From a virus, in the IMG/VR virus record IMGVR_UViG_3300047494_000104, positions 4,343 through 68,342 of that record: a DNA stretch of 64,000 bases; one strand, given 5' to 3'. The notes under the pieces were generated by a model, which saw nothing but the letters and a program-made list of their open reading frames with translations, did no database searches and had not been told where the DNA came from. A program made the translations under genes and the position numbers. This document shows positions 4,198 to 12,143 of the stretch, in pieces (within the stretch, counting starts at the first letter, position 1; every line of letters starts with the position of its first letter).

Positions 4198-4938
4198 TCA
4201 CGATTTGTTAACCTCGAGCGTGATCGTGTTGACCATCGTGCCGGAGGATTTGAACGAGCCGGCCGGGTTTTCGTGGATGAACCAGACGTAGCAGCCGGCG
4301 GCGCGCATCTTATCGGTGAACTTCTGGAAAGCGGCGCTCGTGGTATTGCCCGCCATGATGGAAACGAGCTTACCTCCATCGTGCAGCCATTCCAGCGCCC
4401 GGAGGACGTGCTTGATGTCGTGGCCCTTGGTAAAAGGCGGGTTCATCACCACGCGCTCGACCTTGGACCGAGGCATCTCGAGGAAGTCCATCTCGCAGTA
4501 GAGAAGCCCTTTGCTCTCCAGAACCTTGCACGCGACGGGATCCTTCTCGACGCACTTCACCCAGCGCGCGCCAGCTTGCACGCAGAGCATCGCCAGCGCC
4601 CCGTGACCGGCCGACGGCTCGAGCACCGTGCGTTCTTCCACGTTCGCCAGCTCGACGACGTAGGCTGCCAATTCCGGCGGGGTGTAGAACGCCTGGTTCG
4701 CTTGCTGGATGCTGGTGGACTCGCCGGTCTCGAGGACCATGCCGAGCAGCGGCCGCGGATCGGAAACGAAAACGTGCGCCTTCGCGCCGCGATTCCATTT
4801 GCCGCCGGCGTTGGTCAGCACCTTGTTGACGCGCTCGTAAAGGCCGCGGTCGAGTTGTTGAGGGAGAACGACGCTATTTGCGCCGATGGTGGAGCGCTCG
4901 AGGACTGAGCGCACGTCGGGTGTCAGTGTGGTTGGCAT
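4198..4938 (-). CDS. DNA N6-adenine (amino) methyltransferase
   Basis: AFYTP, motif I VLEPSAGHG, motif IV VMNPPF, GSFKSSGTMV. Confidence 0.9.
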   Translation of the reverse strand: MPTTLTPDVRSVLERSTIGANSVVLPQQLDRGLYERVNKVLTNAGGKWNRGAKAHVFVSDPRPLLGMVLETGESTSIQQANQAFYTPPELAAYVVELANVEERTVLEPSAGHGALAMLCVQAGARWVKCVEKDPVACKVLESKGLLYCEMDFLEMPRSKVERVVMNPPFTKGHDIKHVLRALEWLHDGGKLVSIMAGNTTSAAFQKFTDKMRAAGCYVWFIHENPAGSFKSSGTMVNTITLEVNKS

Positions 4939-5248: not shown

Positions 5249-6430
5249 TCAGTTCACGTCGATGTAGATCATCTCGCCCCACGGGATGATGCCGAATTTG
5301 TTGATCGATCCCCAGAGCACGGGATAGCCGGCAGGCTCGTCATGGGGAAATTGGCCCGCGAGGTCGGTGAGGTAGATAAGAGCGATAGGGTTGATGTCGC
5401 TCGTCTCCACGTAATCGAACACGGGCCGGAAGTCAGTGCCACCACCGCCAACCGCCTTCAGCTCGATCACGTCGCCGGCCTCGTACTCCTTCACCTTGTT
5501 GACCTCGGCGTCGCAGTATATGACGACGAGCTTTTCGGGCAAGCAATCGTCGATAATCCCCTGCATCTCGGAAGCGAAGGCTTGGAGCACCGTATCCGTG
5601 ATGGATCCCGACGTATCGATCGCGACGACGATGGGCCCCATACGCGTCCCGGTCCTGGTCGGCAAGTGAAGGCCGAGATGGATCAGTGACCGCTTGGACT
5701 TGGCAAACGAGTAGTCGTCACCGGCCGCCACGACGTTGAAGAAGTGACGGAGCTGCTCACGCCACGGCACGCGCGGGTCGACGACCTCTTCGATGAGGCG
5801 CTGGAGCATCTGCGGCAGTTTGCCGGCTTGGTTCGCGACGTTGGCCGCCTGGACGACTTTTACCTGCCAGTCGGCTTTCTCTTCCTCGATTTCTTCCGGG
5901 GTGCCTTGAGCCGGCATTACCTCGCCGGGTGACTTGAGTTCTCCCGGCTCATCACCCCCACCGTCGCCCTTACCTGGCGGCTCGACGGGCAGGAGGTTGT
6001 AAATCTCCTCGACACTGAGATTGTCGAAGGCTGGATTAGGCGGGCACCACTTGTCGAGATCGGCCAGCTCGAAGTAATCGCGAAGCTGGGCGTCGCCGTT
6101 GGCAATAGCATGAGCATTCGAGGCCCGCATGACGTTCGCCACCGCGTAGTCGCACGCCTTGTTGTACCGCTTCGGCTCCCTTCCCTCCATGCGGAAGGTG
6201 TGCTGCAGCGCGCCGTGAAGGATGCACTCGCAAATTACCGTCCGCATTTGCTTCTTGGACAGCTTGGCCGCGTGGTCCGGGTTGTACTCGATCTTCTCCC
6301 CGTCCATGCGGAAGGTGGGGATCGCCTTGTTCTCGACCGTCTTCAACGACACCAGCAACGAGCCGAAGAACGGCAGGTCGATGATGATCGTCGCGCGGGC
6401 GAATTCAATGGCTTCGTCGATTGATTTCAT
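5249..6430 (-). CDS. DUF2201-type metallopeptidase-like + vWA domain protein
   Basis: PFFGSL, YNKACDYAVA, MIDAS DTSGSI, GGGGTDFRPVF, YLTD; adjacent to MoxR. Confidence 0.88.
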   Translation of the reverse strand: MKSIDEAIEFARATIIIDLPFFGSLLVSLKTVENKAIPTFRMDGEKIEYNPDHAAKLSKKQMRTVICECILHGALQHTFRMEGREPKRYNKACDYAVANVMRASNAHAIANGDAQLRDYFELADLDKWCPPNPAFDNLSVEEIYNLLPVEPPGKGDGGGDEPGELKSPGEVMPAQGTPEEIEEEKADWQVKVVQAANVANQAGKLPQMLQRLIEEVVDPRVPWREQLRHFFNVVAAGDDYSFAKSKRSLIHLGLHLPTRTGTRMGPIVVAIDTSGSITDTVLQAFASEMQGIIDDCLPEKLVVIYCDAEVNKVKEYEAGDVIELKAVGGGGTDFRPVFDYVETSDINPIALIYLTDLAGQFPHDEPAGYPVLWGSINKFGIIPWGEMIYIDVN

Positions 6431-6590
6431 AGTTTAGCCTGTTGTTCGATTCCAATTTCGGTGAGTTCTGCGATGTCGTTTATCTCGTCGCCGAGAGGCC
6501 CAAATTTAACGAGCTCCAGACAATCCCACTCGCCTTTAATTCGAGCGCGGATTGCCTTGAGGGCTTCGATGGCCGTGAGTTGAGGTCGGT

Positions 6591-7583
6591 TCATGCGAAG
6601 AGGTGGCCGTGCTTAATCAGCCATTGGTTGAACGCCTTGCAGTTGGTCATGTCCAAGTTGCGCACCGCCATGTCCTTCACCGAGCACATCTCGAACTCGT
6701 TGGGCATCCGGCTCAGGTATTGGAACACGTTGTCCGCGTTCTTCGGCGTGACGTGCCGGGCGAGCGCCGTGGCGATGGCATACAAGGGCGCTGGATCCGT
6801 CGGCACCTTGGCCGTCATCGGCTTGGCGAGGATCTCGTCCATCGAGGGCAATTCTTGGTAGACCTTGAGGAAGCCATAGAACTCCGGCGCCGCATGAGGC
6901 CCAACGAACCCGTTCACGATCTGAAGGGACGTCTCGTTGTTGTTCTCCTTCATGTCGTGCGACAAAAACTCCCAGGTCCGAGGGCACGCAAACGGCGTGT
7001 TGTCCTTCCACTTCGCAGGATCGAAGTTCATCAGCATGCCCGGCTTGAAGCGCAGGAACGCGACGATCTCCGGAATGATGCGCCCGGTGTTGGCGCCGTA
7101 TTCCTCGAAGTCCTTCTGGCTGACCTCGAGCGTTTGCATGTTGAGGCGACTGACCAATGCGCTCGGCATTTTGTAGCTCACCGCCCGGTCGGACTGACTA
7201 TTGCCGGCCGCCATGACGCTCCATCCCGGAGGGAGCTCGTACTCGCCCAGCTTCCTGTCCAAGGTAATTTGGTACGCGGCCGCCTGCACCGCTGTCGTTG
7301 CGGCCGTGATTTCGTCGAATAAAACGATTCCCGATCCTTCCGTCGGGAAAAAGTCCGGCGTCATCCAGCGCGTCTTGCCCGTCTTCAGGTCCGGCATCGG
7401 AATGCCGCGGAGGTCGACCGGATCGAACATGTTCAGTCTCACATCTCGAAACTGAATGCCGAGCTCATCCGCGGCTTGCCGGATGATTGATGATTTGCCG
7501 ACGCCGGGCGGCGACATCACCATGAACGGCTGTTTCGATCGGTAAAAACGCTTTGCTGCTTTCTTGAGGTCTTTCGGTCCCAT
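6591..7583 (-). CDS. MoxR-like AAA+ ATPase
   Basis: SPPGVGKS, DPVDLRGIP, VLFDE, AAGN, PRTWE. Confidence 0.92.
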   Translation of the reverse strand: MGPKDLKKAAKRFYRSKQPFMVMSPPGVGKSSIIRQAADELGIQFRDVRLNMFDPVDLRGIPMPDLKTGKTRWMTPDFFPTEGSGIVLFDEITAATTAVQAAAYQITLDRKLGEYELPPGWSVMAAGNSQSDRAVSYKMPSALVSRLNMQTLEVSQKDFEEYGANTGRIIPEIVAFLRFKPGMLMNFDPAKWKDNTPFACPRTWEFLSHDMKENNNETSLQIVNGFVGPHAAPEFYGFLKVYQELPSMDEILAKPMTAKVPTDPAPLYAIATALARHVTPKNADNVFQYLSRMPNEFEMCSVKDMAVRNLDMTNCKAFNQWLIKHGHLFA

Positions 7584-7604
7584 ATGCTTCCTTTGGTTTG
7601 TTGT

Positions 7605-8048
7605 TTACTGCCTGATCACTTTGACGATGGCGGCGAGTTCCTCGAGCGCCTCGTACTTGTCTGCCCAGTCCTGGGCCTCCTGCTTCGCGCGGGTTAAAAT
7701 CTGTTTGCGGAGATTCTTATCCGCCAAGGCTCGCGTTGTACTGACGTAGGCGCGTTCCTGTGCATCATCCTCGCCGCCCAACGTCCTCGAACTGACGAAC
7801 ACGACGCTTTGAAAAGCCCTCACCGGCGCGCCTTCCTCGCGAACGATCATCACCGTTCGTATGAGTTGCCGCGCCTGCCATAGGCGATACTCGCTAGCTG
7901 CCTTGCTGTCGTCCCACTGAAAAAACCTGTGAAGCGGCGAATCGACCGGCTTCGCCTCTTTCACCACCGCTTGCGGCGTTAGGGTGCCGTCCCGTTTTTC
8001 TATCTTATCGAAATAGTTTTTGATGATTTCGTCTTTTGTTTTGCTCAT
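7605..8048 (-). CDS. Small protein directly downstream of the pentamer array (candidate accessory subunit)
   Basis: GTLTPQAVVKEAK...SPLHRFFQWDDSKAA..YRLWQARQLIR; start ATG at 8048 after AAAGGA. Confidence 0.8.
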   Translation of the reverse strand: MSKTKDEIIKNYFDKIEKRDGTLTPQAVVKEAKPVDSPLHRFFQWDDSKAASEYRLWQARQLIRTVMIVREEGAPVRAFQSVVFVSSRTLGGEDDAQERAYVSTTRALADKNLRKQILTRAKQEAQDWADKYEALEELAAIVKVIRQ

Positions 8049-8062
8049 ATTTTTGTCCTTTG

Positions 8063-8580
8063 CTGCCATTCCGTTACACTCCATTCCAACGCGGTCCTGT
8101 CCCGGAGCTTCCTTTCCTATCCAATTCTGCCCATGCGCTACAATGCTCTACGGTTCTCGACGTTACTTGCCGTTCCCTTGCTGCCCATGTTCGCCGGTCC
8201 TGTCCGTCCTGTCCCAGGCTCGACCCTCCAGTCCTATGCTGGCTTGCCGTGCCACGGCTCTCCTCGTCATTGCTCTCGCGTCCTGACCGTTCCGGTACTG
8301 CCCGTGCGTGCGATGCCATGCCTTTCCCTAGCTCTGCTCTCCAGTCCTTTACTGCCACTTCCCGACATTGCCCTCCACCCTCTCGATTCCAAGACGGTCG
8401 ATTCCAGTGCTGGCTTTCCGGGCCTTACCTTGCCGCTCACAGCGATTTCCCGCCCCGCCTCTGCTGGCATTCCTTTCCACTGATTCCGGTCCACTTCCCG
8501 CCGGTGCTGTGCTTTCCTTTACTGCCTATCCACTACACGGGTGGCCAATTCATTGCCCACCCATCCCTTTCCCGCCTTTT
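8063..8580 (-). ncRNA. Array of 9 candidate guide RNAs (5-nt period GNA/GNC-NN, each unit ending GGCAG/GCCAG); VIPR-like
   Basis: Unit ends at + strand 8063, 8127, 8181, 8239, 8298, 8352, 8410, 8464, 8522; by hand count 76 of 85 full pentamers start with G and 31 start with GGA. Confidence 0.88.
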
Positions 8581-9290
8581 CAAATTACGCGAAACATGCC
8601 CCACGAGCCGTTGCACTCGGGGCGATATTCAAAGATGCCAACGCCGAAGCCAGCGACGTTGAAGAGGTTGGTGATCTGGCCGGGCGTGATCACCCGCGAG
8701 TTGTACTCGACGAGGAACTTCACCCGCCAGGTCGGGAATTGAGCGCGAAACCGAATGTCGGACGTGCCCATGCCGACGCGGACCATGTCCGAACGCATCG
8801 AAGCGCCGTGCTTGCGCTCGAATTCGATCTCGTTCCAATACTTGGAATCTTCTTCGGTGATCGGCGTTTTGATCTCCGGCACTTCGATCTTGAGCATGTC
8901 GCCCTTGATGTGGAACGCCCGGCGCATCGCCGTCTTCTGGAGTTCGACGTCGTTCGCCGCGGTTACCGCCGCGTTCTTGAGCGACACGGCCGGAATTCCG
9001 AATCCCGATCCGTCCGGAAGACGATAGAGCGACGCCTTAAAGTCCTCCACCGGATTCCGCTTTTCGCGGCCCTTGCTGGCCTCGCCGAGCTGCTTGTCGA
9101 GCATCATCTTCTTGGCCTTTTCGCTCCAGGCGTGTACGACGAGTTGAGACGTTCCCTCGATCGTGACCTGAAAGGTAATCAGGTCAAGGCGGACGTCTTG
9201 GATTTGCAGCATCTCCGCAACGAGCTTTCCGCCTTTCGGCGTCGATCCGTTACGGGTTGCTTTGAGTTTGGGTGCTGATTTGACTGGCAT
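8580..9290 (-). CDS. Stand-alone Cas7/RAMP-like protein (Vipr-like)
   Basis: N-terminal strand VTIEGTSQLVVH, IPAVSLKNA (cf. RAMP IPGSSLKG), C-terminal G-rich loop AGFGVGIFEYRPECNGSWGMF; abuts the array. Confidence 0.8.
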   Translation of the reverse strand: MPVKSAPKLKATRNGSTPKGGKLVAEMLQIQDVRLDLITFQVTIEGTSQLVVHAWSEKAKKMMLDKQLGEASKGREKRNPVEDFKASLYRLPDGSGFGIPAVSLKNAAVTAANDVELQKTAMRRAFHIKGDMLKIEVPEIKTPITEEDSKYWNEIEFERKHGASMRSDMVRVGMGTSDIRFRAQFPTWRVKFLVEYNSRVITPGQITNLFNVAGFGVGIFEYRPECNGSWGMFRVI

Positions 9291-9792
9291 GTTGTTCCTT
9301 TGGTTCTTTGTTAATCACGAATTCGACGAACATCGTCAGCGTCGTGAGCGCGAAGGCGATGCCTAAAGTGTAGATAATGGTGGCGACGAAGCGGTCGGCT
9401 CGATCGTGCGCGCAGAGGTTGGGTTTCTTCATAAAAGTTGGAGTTCGCCGCATGCAATCCGCGCGCGCTGGAGAAGTCGATTGCCGATCGAGTCGACGAC
9501 CTTGGGGCAATAGGTCGGAAGCATCGAGGACGTACAGAGCCGCCAATACGCTCCGACGCGGGTGAAGCATTCGTACTCCAGCTTGCCGTCATCGTCTCGG
9601 AAAGCCTCTGCCCTGAACCACACGCTATCGATCTCGAATTCCTCGCTCGAAATGATGCCGAGGTTCATGCCATTGGCATATTGGAGCTTGGCTTTGCTCA
9701 CTCGCGCCCCCTCGACGAGGGCGCGAGTCCGAGCCATTGCAAGCCGCGCGCATCCAAGCGATTCCCTGCCGAGGGATGCCATTGAGCGGACG

Positions 9793-10668
9793 TCATGCAG
9801 CCTCCGGTATTGGACCGAGCATTTCAAGAATATTCGACGCCCTTTGCAGCGCCTCTTTCCTGGTGAAAACGTCGTCGCGGATTTCGTCGGGACGCAGCTT
9901 TCCGATAGATCCCATAATCTCGCGGCGGACCTGCTCGAGGCGTTGGTCCCCGGTGACATTGAGCGAGGGAATCAAATCGCAAATCTCGCGGATGTTCCCA
10001 ACCAGAGAATCTCGAAATACTGCCGGCTTTCCATCGGATCCCTTCTCGTTCAACTTATTAACGAAGTTTGCCAGCTTCTCGCCGAGCCGGGCGTAGAGCT
10101 CGTTCTCGGCCGCCTTTTCGGCTTCGCTGATGCGCTCACTGATCTCGCGCCGCATGGATTCGATCTCCTGGGCCGGCAGGTCGACGCGAATGTCGCCGCC
10201 GTCGGGAACCGGTGCCCGAATGATGCGAAACGAGAAGTGACTCGCGATCGTGGTCTCATCGGGATAGTCCGCTTCGTTGAACGTGCCGTTGAGATCGATG
10301 CGCGCTTGGCGCAGCTTCTCTGGCCACTTGGCGCAAAACCCGGCGGCCGCTACTTCGCCCTTTTCGATCAGGCCGCGGATGTTCTTCATGTAAACGTCGT
10401 GGTGCTTGCCGGGCAGCATGCGGGCTCCGTCGTCACCCCACGGCACGGTATTTTCGCGGTGGAACGTTCGGATCTCGGAGACGATCTTGTTGACCATCTG
10501 GAGGTCGGGATCTTCCTTCGACACCAAACGCTTCACCACGCGCAGGGCATCGCTCTTGGTCCGGTGATTTTCGCTCACCTCCGTGGTGAGCTTCTTGTCC
10601 GTCTTCGTGCCGGAAAACACGCTGATCTTGAGGTTGACCAGCAAACAGCTATCCGAGATTTTGGGCAT
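9793..10668 (-). CDS. DUF3150-like protein, often near phage MoxR-vWA modules
   Basis: LVNLKIS, TVPWGDDGARMLP, FNEADYP, FRDSLVGN, LNVTGD. Confidence 0.65.
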   Translation of the reverse strand: MPKISDSCLLVNLKISVFSGTKTDKKLTTEVSENHRTKSDALRVVKRLVSKEDPDLQMVNKIVSEIRTFHRENTVPWGDDGARMLPGKHHDVYMKNIRGLIEKGEVAAAGFCAKWPEKLRQARIDLNGTFNEADYPDETTIASHFSFRIIRAPVPDGGDIRVDLPAQEIESMRREISERISEAEKAAENELYARLGEKLANFVNKLNEKGSDGKPAVFRDSLVGNIREICDLIPSLNVTGDQRLEQVRREIMGSIGKLRPDEIRDDVFTRKEALQRASNILEMLGPIPEAA

Positions 10669-10688
10669 AATTGATGTTTTGTTAGTGT

Positions 10689-10919
10689 TTAGTTATTCCC
10701 GGAAACGCTTCCTGCATTGCCGGTGAAATTATTGAACCGATCGACCATGACTTGGGACATCCTGGAAATCTCGAGCAATCCTTCCGAAATGCTCGCGACC
10801 GTCTTGGATTGGTCCATGACCGTCTTCCCATCGGCGCTCAGCTTCATTTCGAGCGTGGGCAGTTGGTCAAAAGGCGCAGTGAGTCGGAACTTAAAAACGT
10901 GGGGGGGCGGTTTGGACAT
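10689..10919 (-). CDS. Hypothetical protein
   Basis: Abuts the clamp gene. Confidence 0.55.
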   Translation of the reverse strand: MSKPPPHVFKFRLTAPFDQLPTLEMKLSADGKTVMDQSKTVASISEGLLEISRMSQVMVDRFNNFTGNAGSVSGNN

Positions 10920-12143
10920 TTACGAGACCCTCATCGGCATGATGACGATCTTCTGGTCGTAGTCGTTGGGACTGTCGATCGTGATCGGCGCCATCTCGTT
11001 CTCGAAATTCATCGTGACGCGGCCGCTGGTGAGCGATTCGAGCGCCTCCTGCAGGAACGTCGCGTTGAGCGAGATCTTGAGCCGCTTCGTCATTCGGCCA
11101 TAGAACGTGCAGGCGCCGACGGATTTGCCCTTGTCCGGAATCTTCTGCTCGAGCTCGACGACGTGGTTGAAAAAGTCGAAGCTCATCGTGTCGTTGTTGC
11201 AGCCCTTCATCCGGGTGGATTTGATGGCGGCGATGAACTTCTCGCGGGGAAGCTCGACCCAGTCCTTCAGTGACGTCGGAATCACTTGGCGCCAGTTCGG
11301 GAAGTTTCCCTCGATGAGCTTGGAAGTGATGATCGTGTCGACGAGGTGGAAGCGAATGAAGCCGGGCCAGGTCGCGTAATCCTTGGCGCCCTCCGGCTTT
11401 TCACTACGTTCCGACTGATGGCTGATCAGAAGGTCTGTCGGGATGCGCTTCTTGAGCTTCTCCAGCATGTAGACCGTGGCGTCGGGAATGATCGCGTTGA
11501 TGTCATTCGGAACAGGTCCGCCCAGGCTGATGCTGGAAGTGGCCAAGCGCCGGCCGTCCGTGGCGATCATAGTGGTGGACATCGGCCGTTCCGGAATCTC
11601 TTTGACGAAAGGCTTACCGTCGGAATCTTTGGCCTTCTCCTTGCGGGCCGGCTGATAGGTCAGGTGCTCAAAGCAGATGCCGTTGAGCACATACCGCGAG
11701 GCGTCCTTCGACATGGCGTAGGAGGTGAGCCGGAGTGCGTCTTGAAAGACCTGGCCGGACATGCCGAAGATCGTCGCGTCCTTGAGCTTAATGGACGGCG
11801 GGACGTCGTTCACATCGAACATGAGAGCTTCCATCCGCTGGCCGCCACAGATGACCTCGACGATGTTCTTCGTCTTCACCAAGAATGTGACGGTCTCCTC
11901 ATTGGCGCCGGCGACGAAAGCCCGGAGATCCTTCCACGGCAGAACGATGTTGAGATCGCCCTCGCACTGGAGGAACGTCTCGATCGTGGAGTCGAGGTTG
12001 GTGGTGGCGAGCGTGAGCACACGGCCCAGCGCGTTGATATGGACCGCGTCGAGTATGGGCAGCGTCGATCCCTTACCCTTCTTGTTCACGGCCAGCCCGA
12101 CAATGTCGAGCGCCGCCAGTATCAACTTGCGTGATGTTTGCAT
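10920..12143 (-). CDS. dnaN: DNA polymerase III beta sliding clamp homolog
   Basis: TLPIL, LATTNLD, SRYVLNGI, IATDGRRLA, KLIEGNFPNWRQVIP, C-terminal VIMPMR. Confidence 0.92.
   Translation of the reverse strand: MQTSRKLILAALDIVGLAVNKKGKGSTLPILDAVHINALGRVLTLATTNLDSTIETFLQCEGDLNIVLPWKDLRAFVAGANEETVTFLVKTKNIVEVICGGQRMEALMFDVNDVPPSIKLKDATIFGMSGQVFQDALRLTSYAMSKDASRYVLNGICFEHLTYQPARKEKAKDSDGKPFVKEIPERPMSTTMIATDGRRLATSSISLGGPVPNDINAIIPDATVYMLEKLKKRIPTDLLISHQSERSEKPEGAKDYATWPGFIRFHLVDTIITSKLIEGNFPNWRQVIPTSLKDWVELPREKFIAAIKSTRMKGCNNDTMSFDFFNHVVELEQKIPDKGKSVGACTFYGRMTKRLKISLNATFLQEALESLTSGRVTMNFENEMAPITIDSPNDYDQKIVIMPMRVS

What the first reader, a model, noticed from the sequence alone, without database searches (positions are those of the whole stretch)
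8522..8612. Guide 1 matches the 3' end of the RAMP gene itself, with mismatches that look like self-avoidance
SEEN: unit 1 NN = AA GG AG TG GG AT TT CA GT GT TA, readable as N G S W G M F Q V V stop. The adjacent gene ends AAC GGC TCG TGG GGC ATG TTT CGC GTA ATT TGA (NGSWGMFRVI*), positions 1-2 = AA GG TC TG GG AT TT CG GT AT TG. Seven of 11 dinucleotides (17/22 nt) are identical. The one full mismatch is Ser AGY versus TCN, a rare kind of synonymous swap that changes both read positions. This is an in-window check of the skip-one code that needs no database. INFERENCE: the guide targets the homologous system of a competing phage while this copy escapes; alternatively it gives weak autoregulation.
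Basis: partly seen in the sequence, partly recalled or inferred. Interest (0 to 1): 0.93.

Follow-up and report, generated by a model that had tools for sequence, protein, structure and literature searches.

The report
VIPR guide matching its own gene
This phage carries a recently described RNA-guided silencing system (VIPR), and its first guide really does mirror the conserved end of the system's own protein gene, most likely to hit rival phages' copies, a behaviour already reported for related systems.

Summary
On the minus strand, the 11 variable dinucleotides of unit 1 (8581-8527) match codon positions 1-2 of the gene's last 11 codons (8612-8581) at 17/22. That is the single best hit in the whole window.

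The locus is a VIPR system. It has a lone Cas7-like RAMP, a small partner gene and a 5-nt-periodic array.

With permuted guides, 17/22 on the own gene is reached in 7 of 20,000 trials. The best non-self vipr gene gives 19/22, reached in 1 of 20,000. Only the skip-1 rule gives the match.

All 11 guide dinucleotides are states seen at the homologous codons of the family. Six of 96 other alleles score 18-19/22, above the published 80% cut-off. Self scores 77%.

No perfect rival allele was found. Self still outscores 81 of 96 other alleles, so "self-avoidance" is plausible but not shown.

Guides aimed at relatives' vipr genes, with lower self-scores, are already reported (10.64898/2026.10.15.759431). 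This is a new instance of a known kind and of modest interest.

The parts
8580..9290 (-). vipr gene: a lone Cas7-like RAMP of 236 aa (P0001)
   Evidence: There is no Pfam hit; the protein matches phrog_4652 at E 2.6e-26. The AF2 model has pLDDT 87.9, and its top PDB matches are Csm3/Cas7 subunits of type III-A complexes (E 1.3e-6, TM 0.43-0.50). A glycine-rich loop with an E-Y-R motif lies near the C-terminus.
8581..8612 (-). Putative sub-threshold self site: the last 11 codons of vipr, read at codon positions 1-2
   Evidence: It matches guide 1 at 17/22, in frame, with the skipped base on the wobble position. Dinucleotides 2, 5, 7 and 9 are invariant in 97 of 97 aligned family alleles.
8522..8581 (-). 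vrRNA unit 1 (guide 1): 11 pentamers (8581-8527) plus the GGCA(G) punctuation
   Evidence: The parse is. Ten of the 11 pentamers start with G. Its NN string is the top outlier (z 5.8) among 339 guides tested against vipr genes.
8063..8581 (-). Staggered vrRNA array: about nine units of 54-64 nt, 93 pentamers, each unit ended by a 4-mer GGCA or GCCA that shifts the phase by one
   Evidence: G autocorrelation is 0.36, 0.26 and 0.28 at lags 5, 10 and 15. Scaffold composition is G 91% at position 1, G 59% at position 2, and A 66% / C 26% at position 3. No Rfam family matches at E up to 1. The minus strand is purine-rich.
7605..8048 (-). vap-like accessory gene, 147 aa from the ATG at 8048. The ORF list starts it at 8084, which lies inside unit 9.
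   Evidence: It matches phrog_15946 at E 4.6e-29. Homologues lie on the same strand in 106 of 122 vipr loci, and in 86 of those 106 they start within 150 nt of the vipr stop.

Best explanation
The locus is a phage-encoded VIPR system with three parts: vipr (a lone Cas7-like RAMP), a staggered array of vrRNAs built from 5-nt units (3-nt scaffold plus 2 variable letters), and a vap-like partner gene.

By the published mechanism, one Vipr protomer binds each repeat and hides the scaffold triplet. The NN pairs then read double-stranded DNA while skipping every third base, and the bound filament represses transcription.

Guide 1 is a genuine guide directed at the conserved 3' end of vipr genes of this subfamily (the NGSWGMF-type C-terminus). 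Its most likely role is to silence the VIPR operon of a closely related competing phage. The carrier's own allele differs at 5 of 22 read letters (77%, below the 80% used in print to call targets), so it is probably spared.

Status of each step:
- Shown here: the anatomy, the RAMP fold, the conservation of the module, and the statistical and comparative link between guide 1 and vipr 3' ends.
- Taken from the literature: the binding mode and the repression.
- Inferred: that guide 1 is expressed and processed, that a matching rival exists, and that 77% identity means escape.
For: The system:
- Top fold matches are Csm3/Cas7.
- A 5-nt G-periodic array lies on the gene strand in 78 of 84 homologue loci. 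This includes annotated Mycobacterium, Gordonia and cyanophage genomes.
- The partner gene is present in 106 of 122 vipr loci.
- 438 unique guides from 98 loci have a GGC/GGT-dominated scaffold.
- This matches the VIPR description read in 10.64898/2026.04.26.720920 (Results and four Methods sections).

Guide 1:
- 17/22 on the own gene is the unique best hit in the window.
- Permuted-guide null: 17 or more on own vipr in 7 of 20,000 trials; 19 or more on 106 non-self unique vipr CDS in 1 of 20,000.
- Only skip-1 works: 17 own / 19 other, against 11-12 / 14-16 for skip 0, 2, 3 and for the guide read backwards.
- The hit is in frame, with the skipped base on the wobble position, and it ends on the stop codon in self, L100 and L116.
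- Every one of the 11 guide dinucleotides occurs at the homologous codon somewhere in 97 aligned alleles. Where self mismatches, the guide carries the family-majority state CA (76/97, against self's CG at 2/97), the minority serine codon family AGY (8/97), GT (9/97) and TA (6/97).
- Six of 96 non-self alleles reach 18-19/22, which is at least 80%.

Precedent:
- Vipr-directed guides near the gene end, with self-scores lower than non-self scores, are reported in 10.64898/2026.10.15.759431 (section 8 read).
Against: - No allele matching more than 19/22 was found. The exact gapped pattern gave 0 hits in IMG/VR. Two relaxed patterns gave 1 and 4 hits, none of them a vipr gene.
- Among 121 proteins (self and its near-identical copy included), the ceiling under the most favourable codon choice is 21/22 for one protein and 20/22 for three other non-self proteins.
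- The better scores of relatives are not independent of the self match, because the C-terminus is conserved. Family alleles score 12-19 at this site.
- Self outscores 81 of 96 other alleles.
- Window-wide, 17/22 is reached by 2-5% of random guides, so with nine units and no prior target class it would not be significant.
- Vipr-targeting is not general in this clade. Guides reaching 85% identity were as many with shuffled as with real guides (22 against 22 of 401). None of 13 other gene-proximal guides is significant.
- Unit 1 has no upstream punctuation to define its 5' end, its first pentamer may be linker, and its scaffold is weak.
- Expression is unknown.
Confidence: 0.6

Rival explanations
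1. Coincidence. Unit 1 is an ordinary guide, or a degenerate leader, with another or no target. Its resemblance to the vipr 3' end is a chance hit that was picked out after the fact.
For: - Window-wide, 18 of 800 shuffled and 44 of 800 pool-drawn guides reach 17/22.
- There are nine units and many possible readings. The same reader also proposed protein motifs for other guides.
- Two of 339 guides reach 0/100 in the vipr-class test, which is about what chance allows.
- No perfect target was found.
Against: - Against the vipr class, the null is exceeded only 7 of 20,000 times (self) and 1 of 20,000 times (others).
- The z score is 5.8, the largest of 339 guides.
- The match is specific to skip-1 and to the forward direction.
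- It is in frame with the skipped base on the wobble position.
- All four self-mismatched dinucleotides are real family states.
Confidence: 0.17
2. Autoregulation in cis. The imperfect 77% match lets the guide-1 filament bind its own vipr 3' end weakly. That would throttle read-through from vipr into the array and the vap gene, giving negative feedback on the system.
For: - The site sits exactly at the vipr/array junction, and no promoter-like or terminator-like site on the minus strand separates vipr, array and partner gene.
- VIPR represses transcription when bound on either strand.
- Self scores higher than 81 of 96 other alleles.
- Print notes that guides near the end of vipr may affect both vipr and vap1 expression.
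Against: - 77% is under the 80% used for natural targets, and the published self-contig controls found no self-hit at 80% or more.
- Perturbing NN pairing abolished silencing in the published reporter, though the dose was not seen here.
- No comparable own-gene match appears in 334 guides of other loci. The one exception is 17/22 in L084, which by my own frame arithmetic does not have the skipped base on the wobble position.
Confidence: 0.13
3. Relic. Unit 1 once targeted a relative's vipr allele but is now a decaying or unprocessed first unit with no present function.
For: - Unit 1 has the weakest scaffold. By my own hand count from the parse, G at position 2 occurs in 5 of 11 pentamers, against 59% array-wide.
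- It lacks an upstream GGCA(G) boundary and overlaps the stop codon.
- No extant perfect target was found.
Against: - The register is intact: 10 of 11 pentamers start with G.
- The NN string still matches all four invariant family dinucleotides. Decay would blur the NN letters as fast as the scaffold.
Confidence: 0.1

Closest known systems
VIPR systems (Viral Interference Programmable Repeat): Vipr RAMP + vap + vrRNAs. bioRxiv 10.64898/2026.04.26.720920; structures in 10.64898/2026.04.26.720927.
   Same: - A phage-borne lone RAMP with a Cas7-like fold and a G-loop.
- A small accessory gene next to it.
- Tandem 5-nt units with a fixed triplet and two variable letters, 9-14 units per guide.
- A 'staggered' array whose units overlap by one letter, an architecture named in the preprint's legend to fig. 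S18.
- The guide matches a coding target with the skipped base on the wobble position.
   Different: - The scaffold here is G-G-A rather than GGY: position 3 is A in 66% of pentamers. In the other 97 loci parsed, A never exceeds 24%. The preprint does list relaxed NNNGG-type repeats.
- There is no conserved 3' tail or pseudoknot between units.
- Sequence homology to the published SUSP1 or P. fulva Vipr proteins was not tested, and the VIPR type was not assigned, because figures and supplements were not visible.
vrRNAs that target relatives' VIPR systems (bioRxiv 10.64898/2026.10.15.759431, section 8; also one sentence in 10.64898/2026.04.26.720920)
   Same: - A guide directed at the vipr coding sequence near its end.
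- Non-self score (0.86) higher than self score (0.77).
- Calibrated with the same kind of shuffled-guide null.
   Different: - The published vipr-directed cases are solo vrRNAs on phages of the SUSP1 family that have lost vipr and vap1. Here the carrier keeps a full system, and the guide is the first unit of its own array, abutting the gene it resembles.
- This is a different, non-enterobacterial clade.
- No matched rival was identified here.
Class 1 CRISPR-Cas backbone subunits (Cas7/Csm3) with crRNA
   Same: - An RRM/RAMP fold. The top structural matches are Csm3 chains.
- The guide is held along a protein filament with periodic base flipping.
   Different: - Tandem Repeats Finder on 7500-9000 returned only two short rows and no repeat-spacer array next to the gene.
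- The ORFs screened around the locus showed no other cas-like gene.
- The period is 5 with 3 letters hidden in the guide and 1 skipped in the target, not 6 with 1 flipped.
- By the literature, it binds DNA for silencing rather than cleaving.

Membership tests
VIPR system | A lone RAMP (RRM core, G-loop, thumb) outside a CRISPR context | tested here: met
   The AF2 model has pLDDT 87.9. The Foldseek top hits are Csm3/Cas7 chains, including 6ifn_F at E 1.6e-5. A glycine-rich loop with an E-Y-R motif is present. The thumb was not inspected residue by residue. No CRISPR-type repeats are found in 7500-9000.
VIPR system | Adjacent tandem 5-nt repeats with a fixed GGY-type triplet and variable NN, at least 4 units | tested here: met
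   There are 93 pentamers. G is 91% at position 1 and 59% at position 2, and positions 4-5 are near-even. Position 3 is A/C rather than Y, a relaxed consensus of the kind the preprint lists.
VIPR system | A small accessory (vap) gene in the same operon | tested here: met
   The 147-aa partner matches phrog_15946. It is conserved on the same strand in 106 of 122 vipr loci. Its fold and its identity with a named vap1-6 class were not tested.
VIPR system | Carried by a phage or provirus | tested here: met
   The window lies in a 68,342-base virus record. Phage families surround the locus. Homologues occur in Mycobacterium, Gordonia and cyanophage genomes.
VIPR system | Sequence homology to the published Vipr proteins | not tested
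tblastn of P0001 against the phage collection listed 34 records and none was an Escherichia phage.
VIPR system | vrRNAs are expressed, co-purify with Vipr, and repress matched DNA | not testable with these tools
   No RNA run was listed as holding the stretch. This needs small-RNA sequencing and reporter assays.
vipr-directed vrRNA (inter-phage targeting) | Identity of at least 0.8 to a non-self vipr CDS under the 1-nt skip rule, above a shuffled-guide null | tested here: met
   L100 and L116 score 19/22 and four further alleles score 18/22. The null reaches 19 in 1 of 20,000 permutations. Skip 0, 2 and 3 fail.
vipr-directed vrRNA (inter-phage targeting) | Self score lower than non-self score and below the target threshold | tested here: inconclusive
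   Self is 17/22 (0.77), below 0.80 and below six other alleles, but above 81 of 96. A search of the own record with up to 3 mismatches gave 0 hits. Whether 0.77 escapes binding is unknown.
vipr-directed vrRNA (inter-phage targeting) | A co-occurring rival element that carries the matched site | tested here: not met
   The exact pattern gave 0 hits in IMG/VR. Relaxed patterns returned only non-vipr hits. Contigs of three runs from the same study showed no variant allele. The metagenome and genome collections could only be scanned with a family-level pattern.
CRISPR-Cas class 1 | A CRISPR repeat-spacer array and a multi-gene cas operon | tested here: not met
   Tandem Repeats Finder gave only two short rows in 7500-9000. 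The neighbours are a clamp-like protein, a MoxR-type ATPase and a DUF2201 protein.

The most novel reading that the evidence does not exclude
A VIPR-positive phage uses the first unit of its own array, placed directly against the gene it mirrors, for two jobs. It acts as an allele-specific weapon against close relatives' vipr genes. It also acts as a sub-threshold brake on its own operon. Self/non-self discrimination would rest on only five read letters, including a switch between the two serine codon families (TCN and AGY) that no single synonymous step can bridge. That would give a natural calibration point (77% against at least 86% NN identity) for how much mismatch a VIPR filament tolerates.
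Probability: 0.12. Interest if true: 0.6.

Novelty: new member of a known kind. Interest (0 to 1): 0.35.

Why it matters
- It independently recovers the VIPR module (RAMP, partner gene and 5-nt array) in a clade that spans environmental phages, mycobacteriophages, Gordonia phages and a cyanophage.
- It shows the published skip-one code at work inside a single contig.
- It offers a concrete natural pair for measuring mismatch tolerance and self/non-self discrimination in VIPR: the own allele at 77% and relatives at 82-86%.
- It does not open a new kind of system. The system, the code and the idea of guides aimed at rivals' vipr genes are all in 2026 preprints.

Tried and rejected
- Rfam search of 7000-10000 at E up to 1: no family.
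- Early ideas dropped once the literature and the fold search settled the matter: a CsrA-type sponge, a TRAP-like ring binder, a replication origin with iterons, a pentapeptide-repeat ORF. None was tested as such.
- All-against-all target search of 401 guides on 1.6 Mb of VIPR loci: no enrichment of skip-1 hits over shuffled guides or other skip rules (22 against 22 guides at 85% or more). These neighbourhoods are therefore not the usual targets.
- Searches for a perfectly matched rival allele:
  - the exact reader pattern in IMG/VR gave 0 hits;
  - two relaxed patterns gave 1 and 4 hits, all non-vipr;
  - a family-level 3'-end pattern in the metagenome, genome and viral collections gave 97, 81 and 10 stretches; only 27 sites plus the window's own had the G-loop motif upstream, and none came from the genome collection.
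- A second protein search restricted to residues 190-236 returned only 4 proteins.
- Sequencing runs: no RNA holder was listed. One DNA run holds the stretch and may be its source. Laying contigs of three runs of one study at 80% likeness gave only the source contig and short unrelated pieces, with no variant allele.
- Promoter/terminator scan: nothing on the minus strand.
- The vap-like partner was not folded, and the other eight guides' targets were not pursued.
Data S3 and fig. S15 of the first preprint and Supplementary Tables 13-18 of the third may list comparable vipr-directed guides or this clade. Figures could not be seen.

Full report
**What is there**

On the minus strand, a 236-aa gene (9290..8580) is followed by about 520 nt with no credible ORF, and then by a small gene. 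This stretch is strongly purine-rich on the minus strand. It also has a clear 5-nt periodicity of G, with autocorrelation 0.36, 0.26 and 0.28 at lags 5, 10 and 15.

A phase parse gives 93 pentamers. Every 54-64 nt they are interrupted by a 4-mer, GGCA or GCCA, which shifts the phase by one. Position 1 is G in 91% of pentamers and position 2 is G in 59%. Position 3 is A (66%) or C (26%). Positions 4-5 are close to even.

Rfam has no match in the region. The protein has no Pfam family and belongs to phrog_4652. The downstream partner belongs to phrog_15946.

**The module is conserved**

- tblastn finds homologues in 34 phage records from Mycobacterium, Gordonia and one cyanophage.
- In all four annotated loci examined, a pentamer array of the NNGGC kind lies beside the gene. 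It is downstream in ODay and Cy-LDV1, upstream in Saal, and annotated as an ORF in UmaThurman.
- Of 84 loci (80 of them from IMG/VR), 78 have a G-periodic array on the gene strand, mostly just after the partner gene.
- Parsing gives 438 unique guides from 98 loci, with a scaffold dominated by GGC and GGT.
- The partner gene is present on the same strand in 106 of 122 vipr loci.
- An AF2 model built from a 44-sequence alignment (pLDDT 87.9) matches Csm3/Cas7 subunits best (E 1.3e-6).

**It is a published kind**

A full-text search led to bioRxiv 10.64898/2026.04.26.720920. I read its Results and four Methods sections. The preprint describes VIPR systems as follows:
- a phage-encoded lone RAMP (Vipr), a vap gene, and vrRNAs of 9-16 GGY/NN repeats;
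- the NN letters read double-stranded DNA with one skipped base per unit, usually the codon wobble position;
- natural targets are called at 80% or more NN match;
- no self-contig hit reaches that level;
- staggered arrays with 1-nt overlaps are a listed architecture, as are relaxed NNNGG-type repeats.

The structural preprint 10.64898/2026.04.26.720927 (Results read) shows one protomer per repeat, the scaffold triplet sequestered, a pocket that excludes purines at position 3, and R-loop growth from 3' to 5'.

A third preprint, 10.64898/2026.10.15.759431 (abstract and sections 8, 17, 25, 26 read), reports solo vrRNAs that target relatives' vipr genes at the early codons and near the gene end. 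For guides that target other phages' vrRNAs, it reports self-match scores consistently lower than non-self scores.

**The observation**

Unit 1 is 11 pentamers at 8581-8527. It agrees with codon positions 1-2 of the last 11 codons (8612-8581) at 17 of 22 letters and 7 of 11 dinucleotides. The only double mismatch is at the serine codon.

**Is it chance?**

Window-wide:
- The hit is the unique maximum. No position scores 16, and the next scores are 15 at two positions.
- However, 18 of 800 order-shuffled and 44 of 800 pool-drawn guides also reach 17 somewhere in the window. With nine units that alone proves little.

Against the vipr coding sequence as a target class, using the published style of null (permuted informative bases):
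- 17 or more on the own gene occurs in 7 of 20,000 permutations.
- 19 or more on 106 non-self unique vipr CDS occurs in 1 of 20,000.
- The five other long guides of the window show nothing.

Controls and context:
- The match exists only under the skip-1 rule and in the forward direction. Guide 1 scores 17 own / 19 other, against 11-12 / 14-16 for the controls.
- Among 339 guides from 98 loci, guide 1 is the strongest vipr-class outlier, with z 5.8.
- In the all-against-all scan it is the only guide that lands in frame on a vipr 3' end.

**Comparative reading**

I aligned 97 unique vipr alleles on the conserved C-terminal motif.
- Four guide dinucleotides (units 2, 5, 7 and 9) are invariant family states, present in 97 of 97 alleles.
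- At the four places where self mismatches, the guide carries states that exist in relatives:

| Guide state | Where it occurs in the family | Self state |
|---|---|---|
| CA | 76/97 (family majority) | CG (2/97) |
| AG (serine AGY) | 8/97, against 34 TCN | TC |
| GT | 9/97 | AT |
| TA (stop) | 6/97 | TG |

- Six of 96 non-self alleles score 18-19/22 and so pass the printed 80% threshold. These are L100, L116, L139, L030, L130 and L179.
- Self scores 17/22 (77%) and does not pass. A search of the own record allowing 3 mismatches finds nothing.

**What weakens the interpretation**

- Because the C-terminus is conserved, the relatives' scores are not independent of the self match.
- Self outscores 81 of 96 alleles, so it is not visibly avoided.
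- No allele above 19/22 was found. At protein level, under the most favourable codon choice, the ceiling is 21/22 for one homologue and 20/22 for three other non-self homologues.
- Vipr-directed guides are not a general feature here.
- Unit 1 has no defined 5' boundary, and its expression is unknown.

**Verdict**

- The locus is a VIPR system with near certainty.
- The most likely reading (about 0.6) is that guide 1 is directed at the conserved 3' end of close relatives' vipr genes and spares its own allele through five mismatches.
- The rival readings are chance (about 0.17), weak cis autoregulation (about 0.13) and a relic unit (about 0.10).
- This is a new instance, in a different clade and on a VIPR-positive phage, of a behaviour already reported in 2026 preprints. 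Interest is modest.

Noticed in passing
window 8063-8581 (-): The scaffold triplet of this array is G-G-A: position 3 is A in 66% and C in 26% of pentamers. All 97 other parsed loci have at most 24% A there and mostly C/T. This Vipr's G-loop reads GIFEYRPE where most relatives have GVGEWRPE. The structural preprint says the position-3 pocket excludes purines, so protein and scaffold may have co-varied.
   Followed up: partly
window 8048-8084 (-): The longest ORF of the partner gene starts at the ATG at 8084, which lies inside array unit 9. The ATG at 8048, preceded by an AAGGA, is the likelier start and gives 147 aa.
   Followed up: partly
L003 3643-3966 (Gordonia phage UmaThurman gp40); L001 about 2551-2871 (Mycobacterium phage Saal, between gp50 and gp51); L002 3622-3834 (ODay); L004 3661-3901 and 4441-4681 (Cy-LDV1): Published phage genomes carry the same pentamer arrays next to the vipr homologue. 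In UmaThurman the array is annotated as a hypothetical protein gene, probably a false ORF. Saal has the array upstream of the gene, and Cy-LDV1 has two arrays.
   Followed up: partly
L015, guide starting at 4369 of the locus (13 units), against the vipr CDS of L075 at offset 327: This is the second-strongest vipr-class outlier. It scores 20/26 with z 5.1 and 0 of 100 permutations reaching it, making it a possible further vipr-directed guide.
   Followed up: no
L070 guide (8 units) against L065, minus strand, 2295-2318: This is the only perfect skip-1 match (16/16) in the all-against-all scan. The target lies outside the vipr gene. A guide this short can match by chance.
   Followed up: no
L084 guide (11 units) against its own vipr CDS at offset 71: This is the only other guide of 334 with own-gene identity of 0.77. 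It lies near the gene start, but by my own frame arithmetic the skipped base does not fall on the wobble position.
   Followed up: no
window 5249-7583 and 9793-12143 (-): The VIPR module sits among early/replication-type genes: a DUF2201 metallopeptidase/VWA-like protein, a MoxR-type AAA ATPase, a weak DUF3150 match, and a DnaN-like sliding clamp.
   Followed up: no
L027, L058, L064: Some homologue loci carry two or three separate pentamer arrays, upstream and downstream of the gene pair.
   Followed up: no
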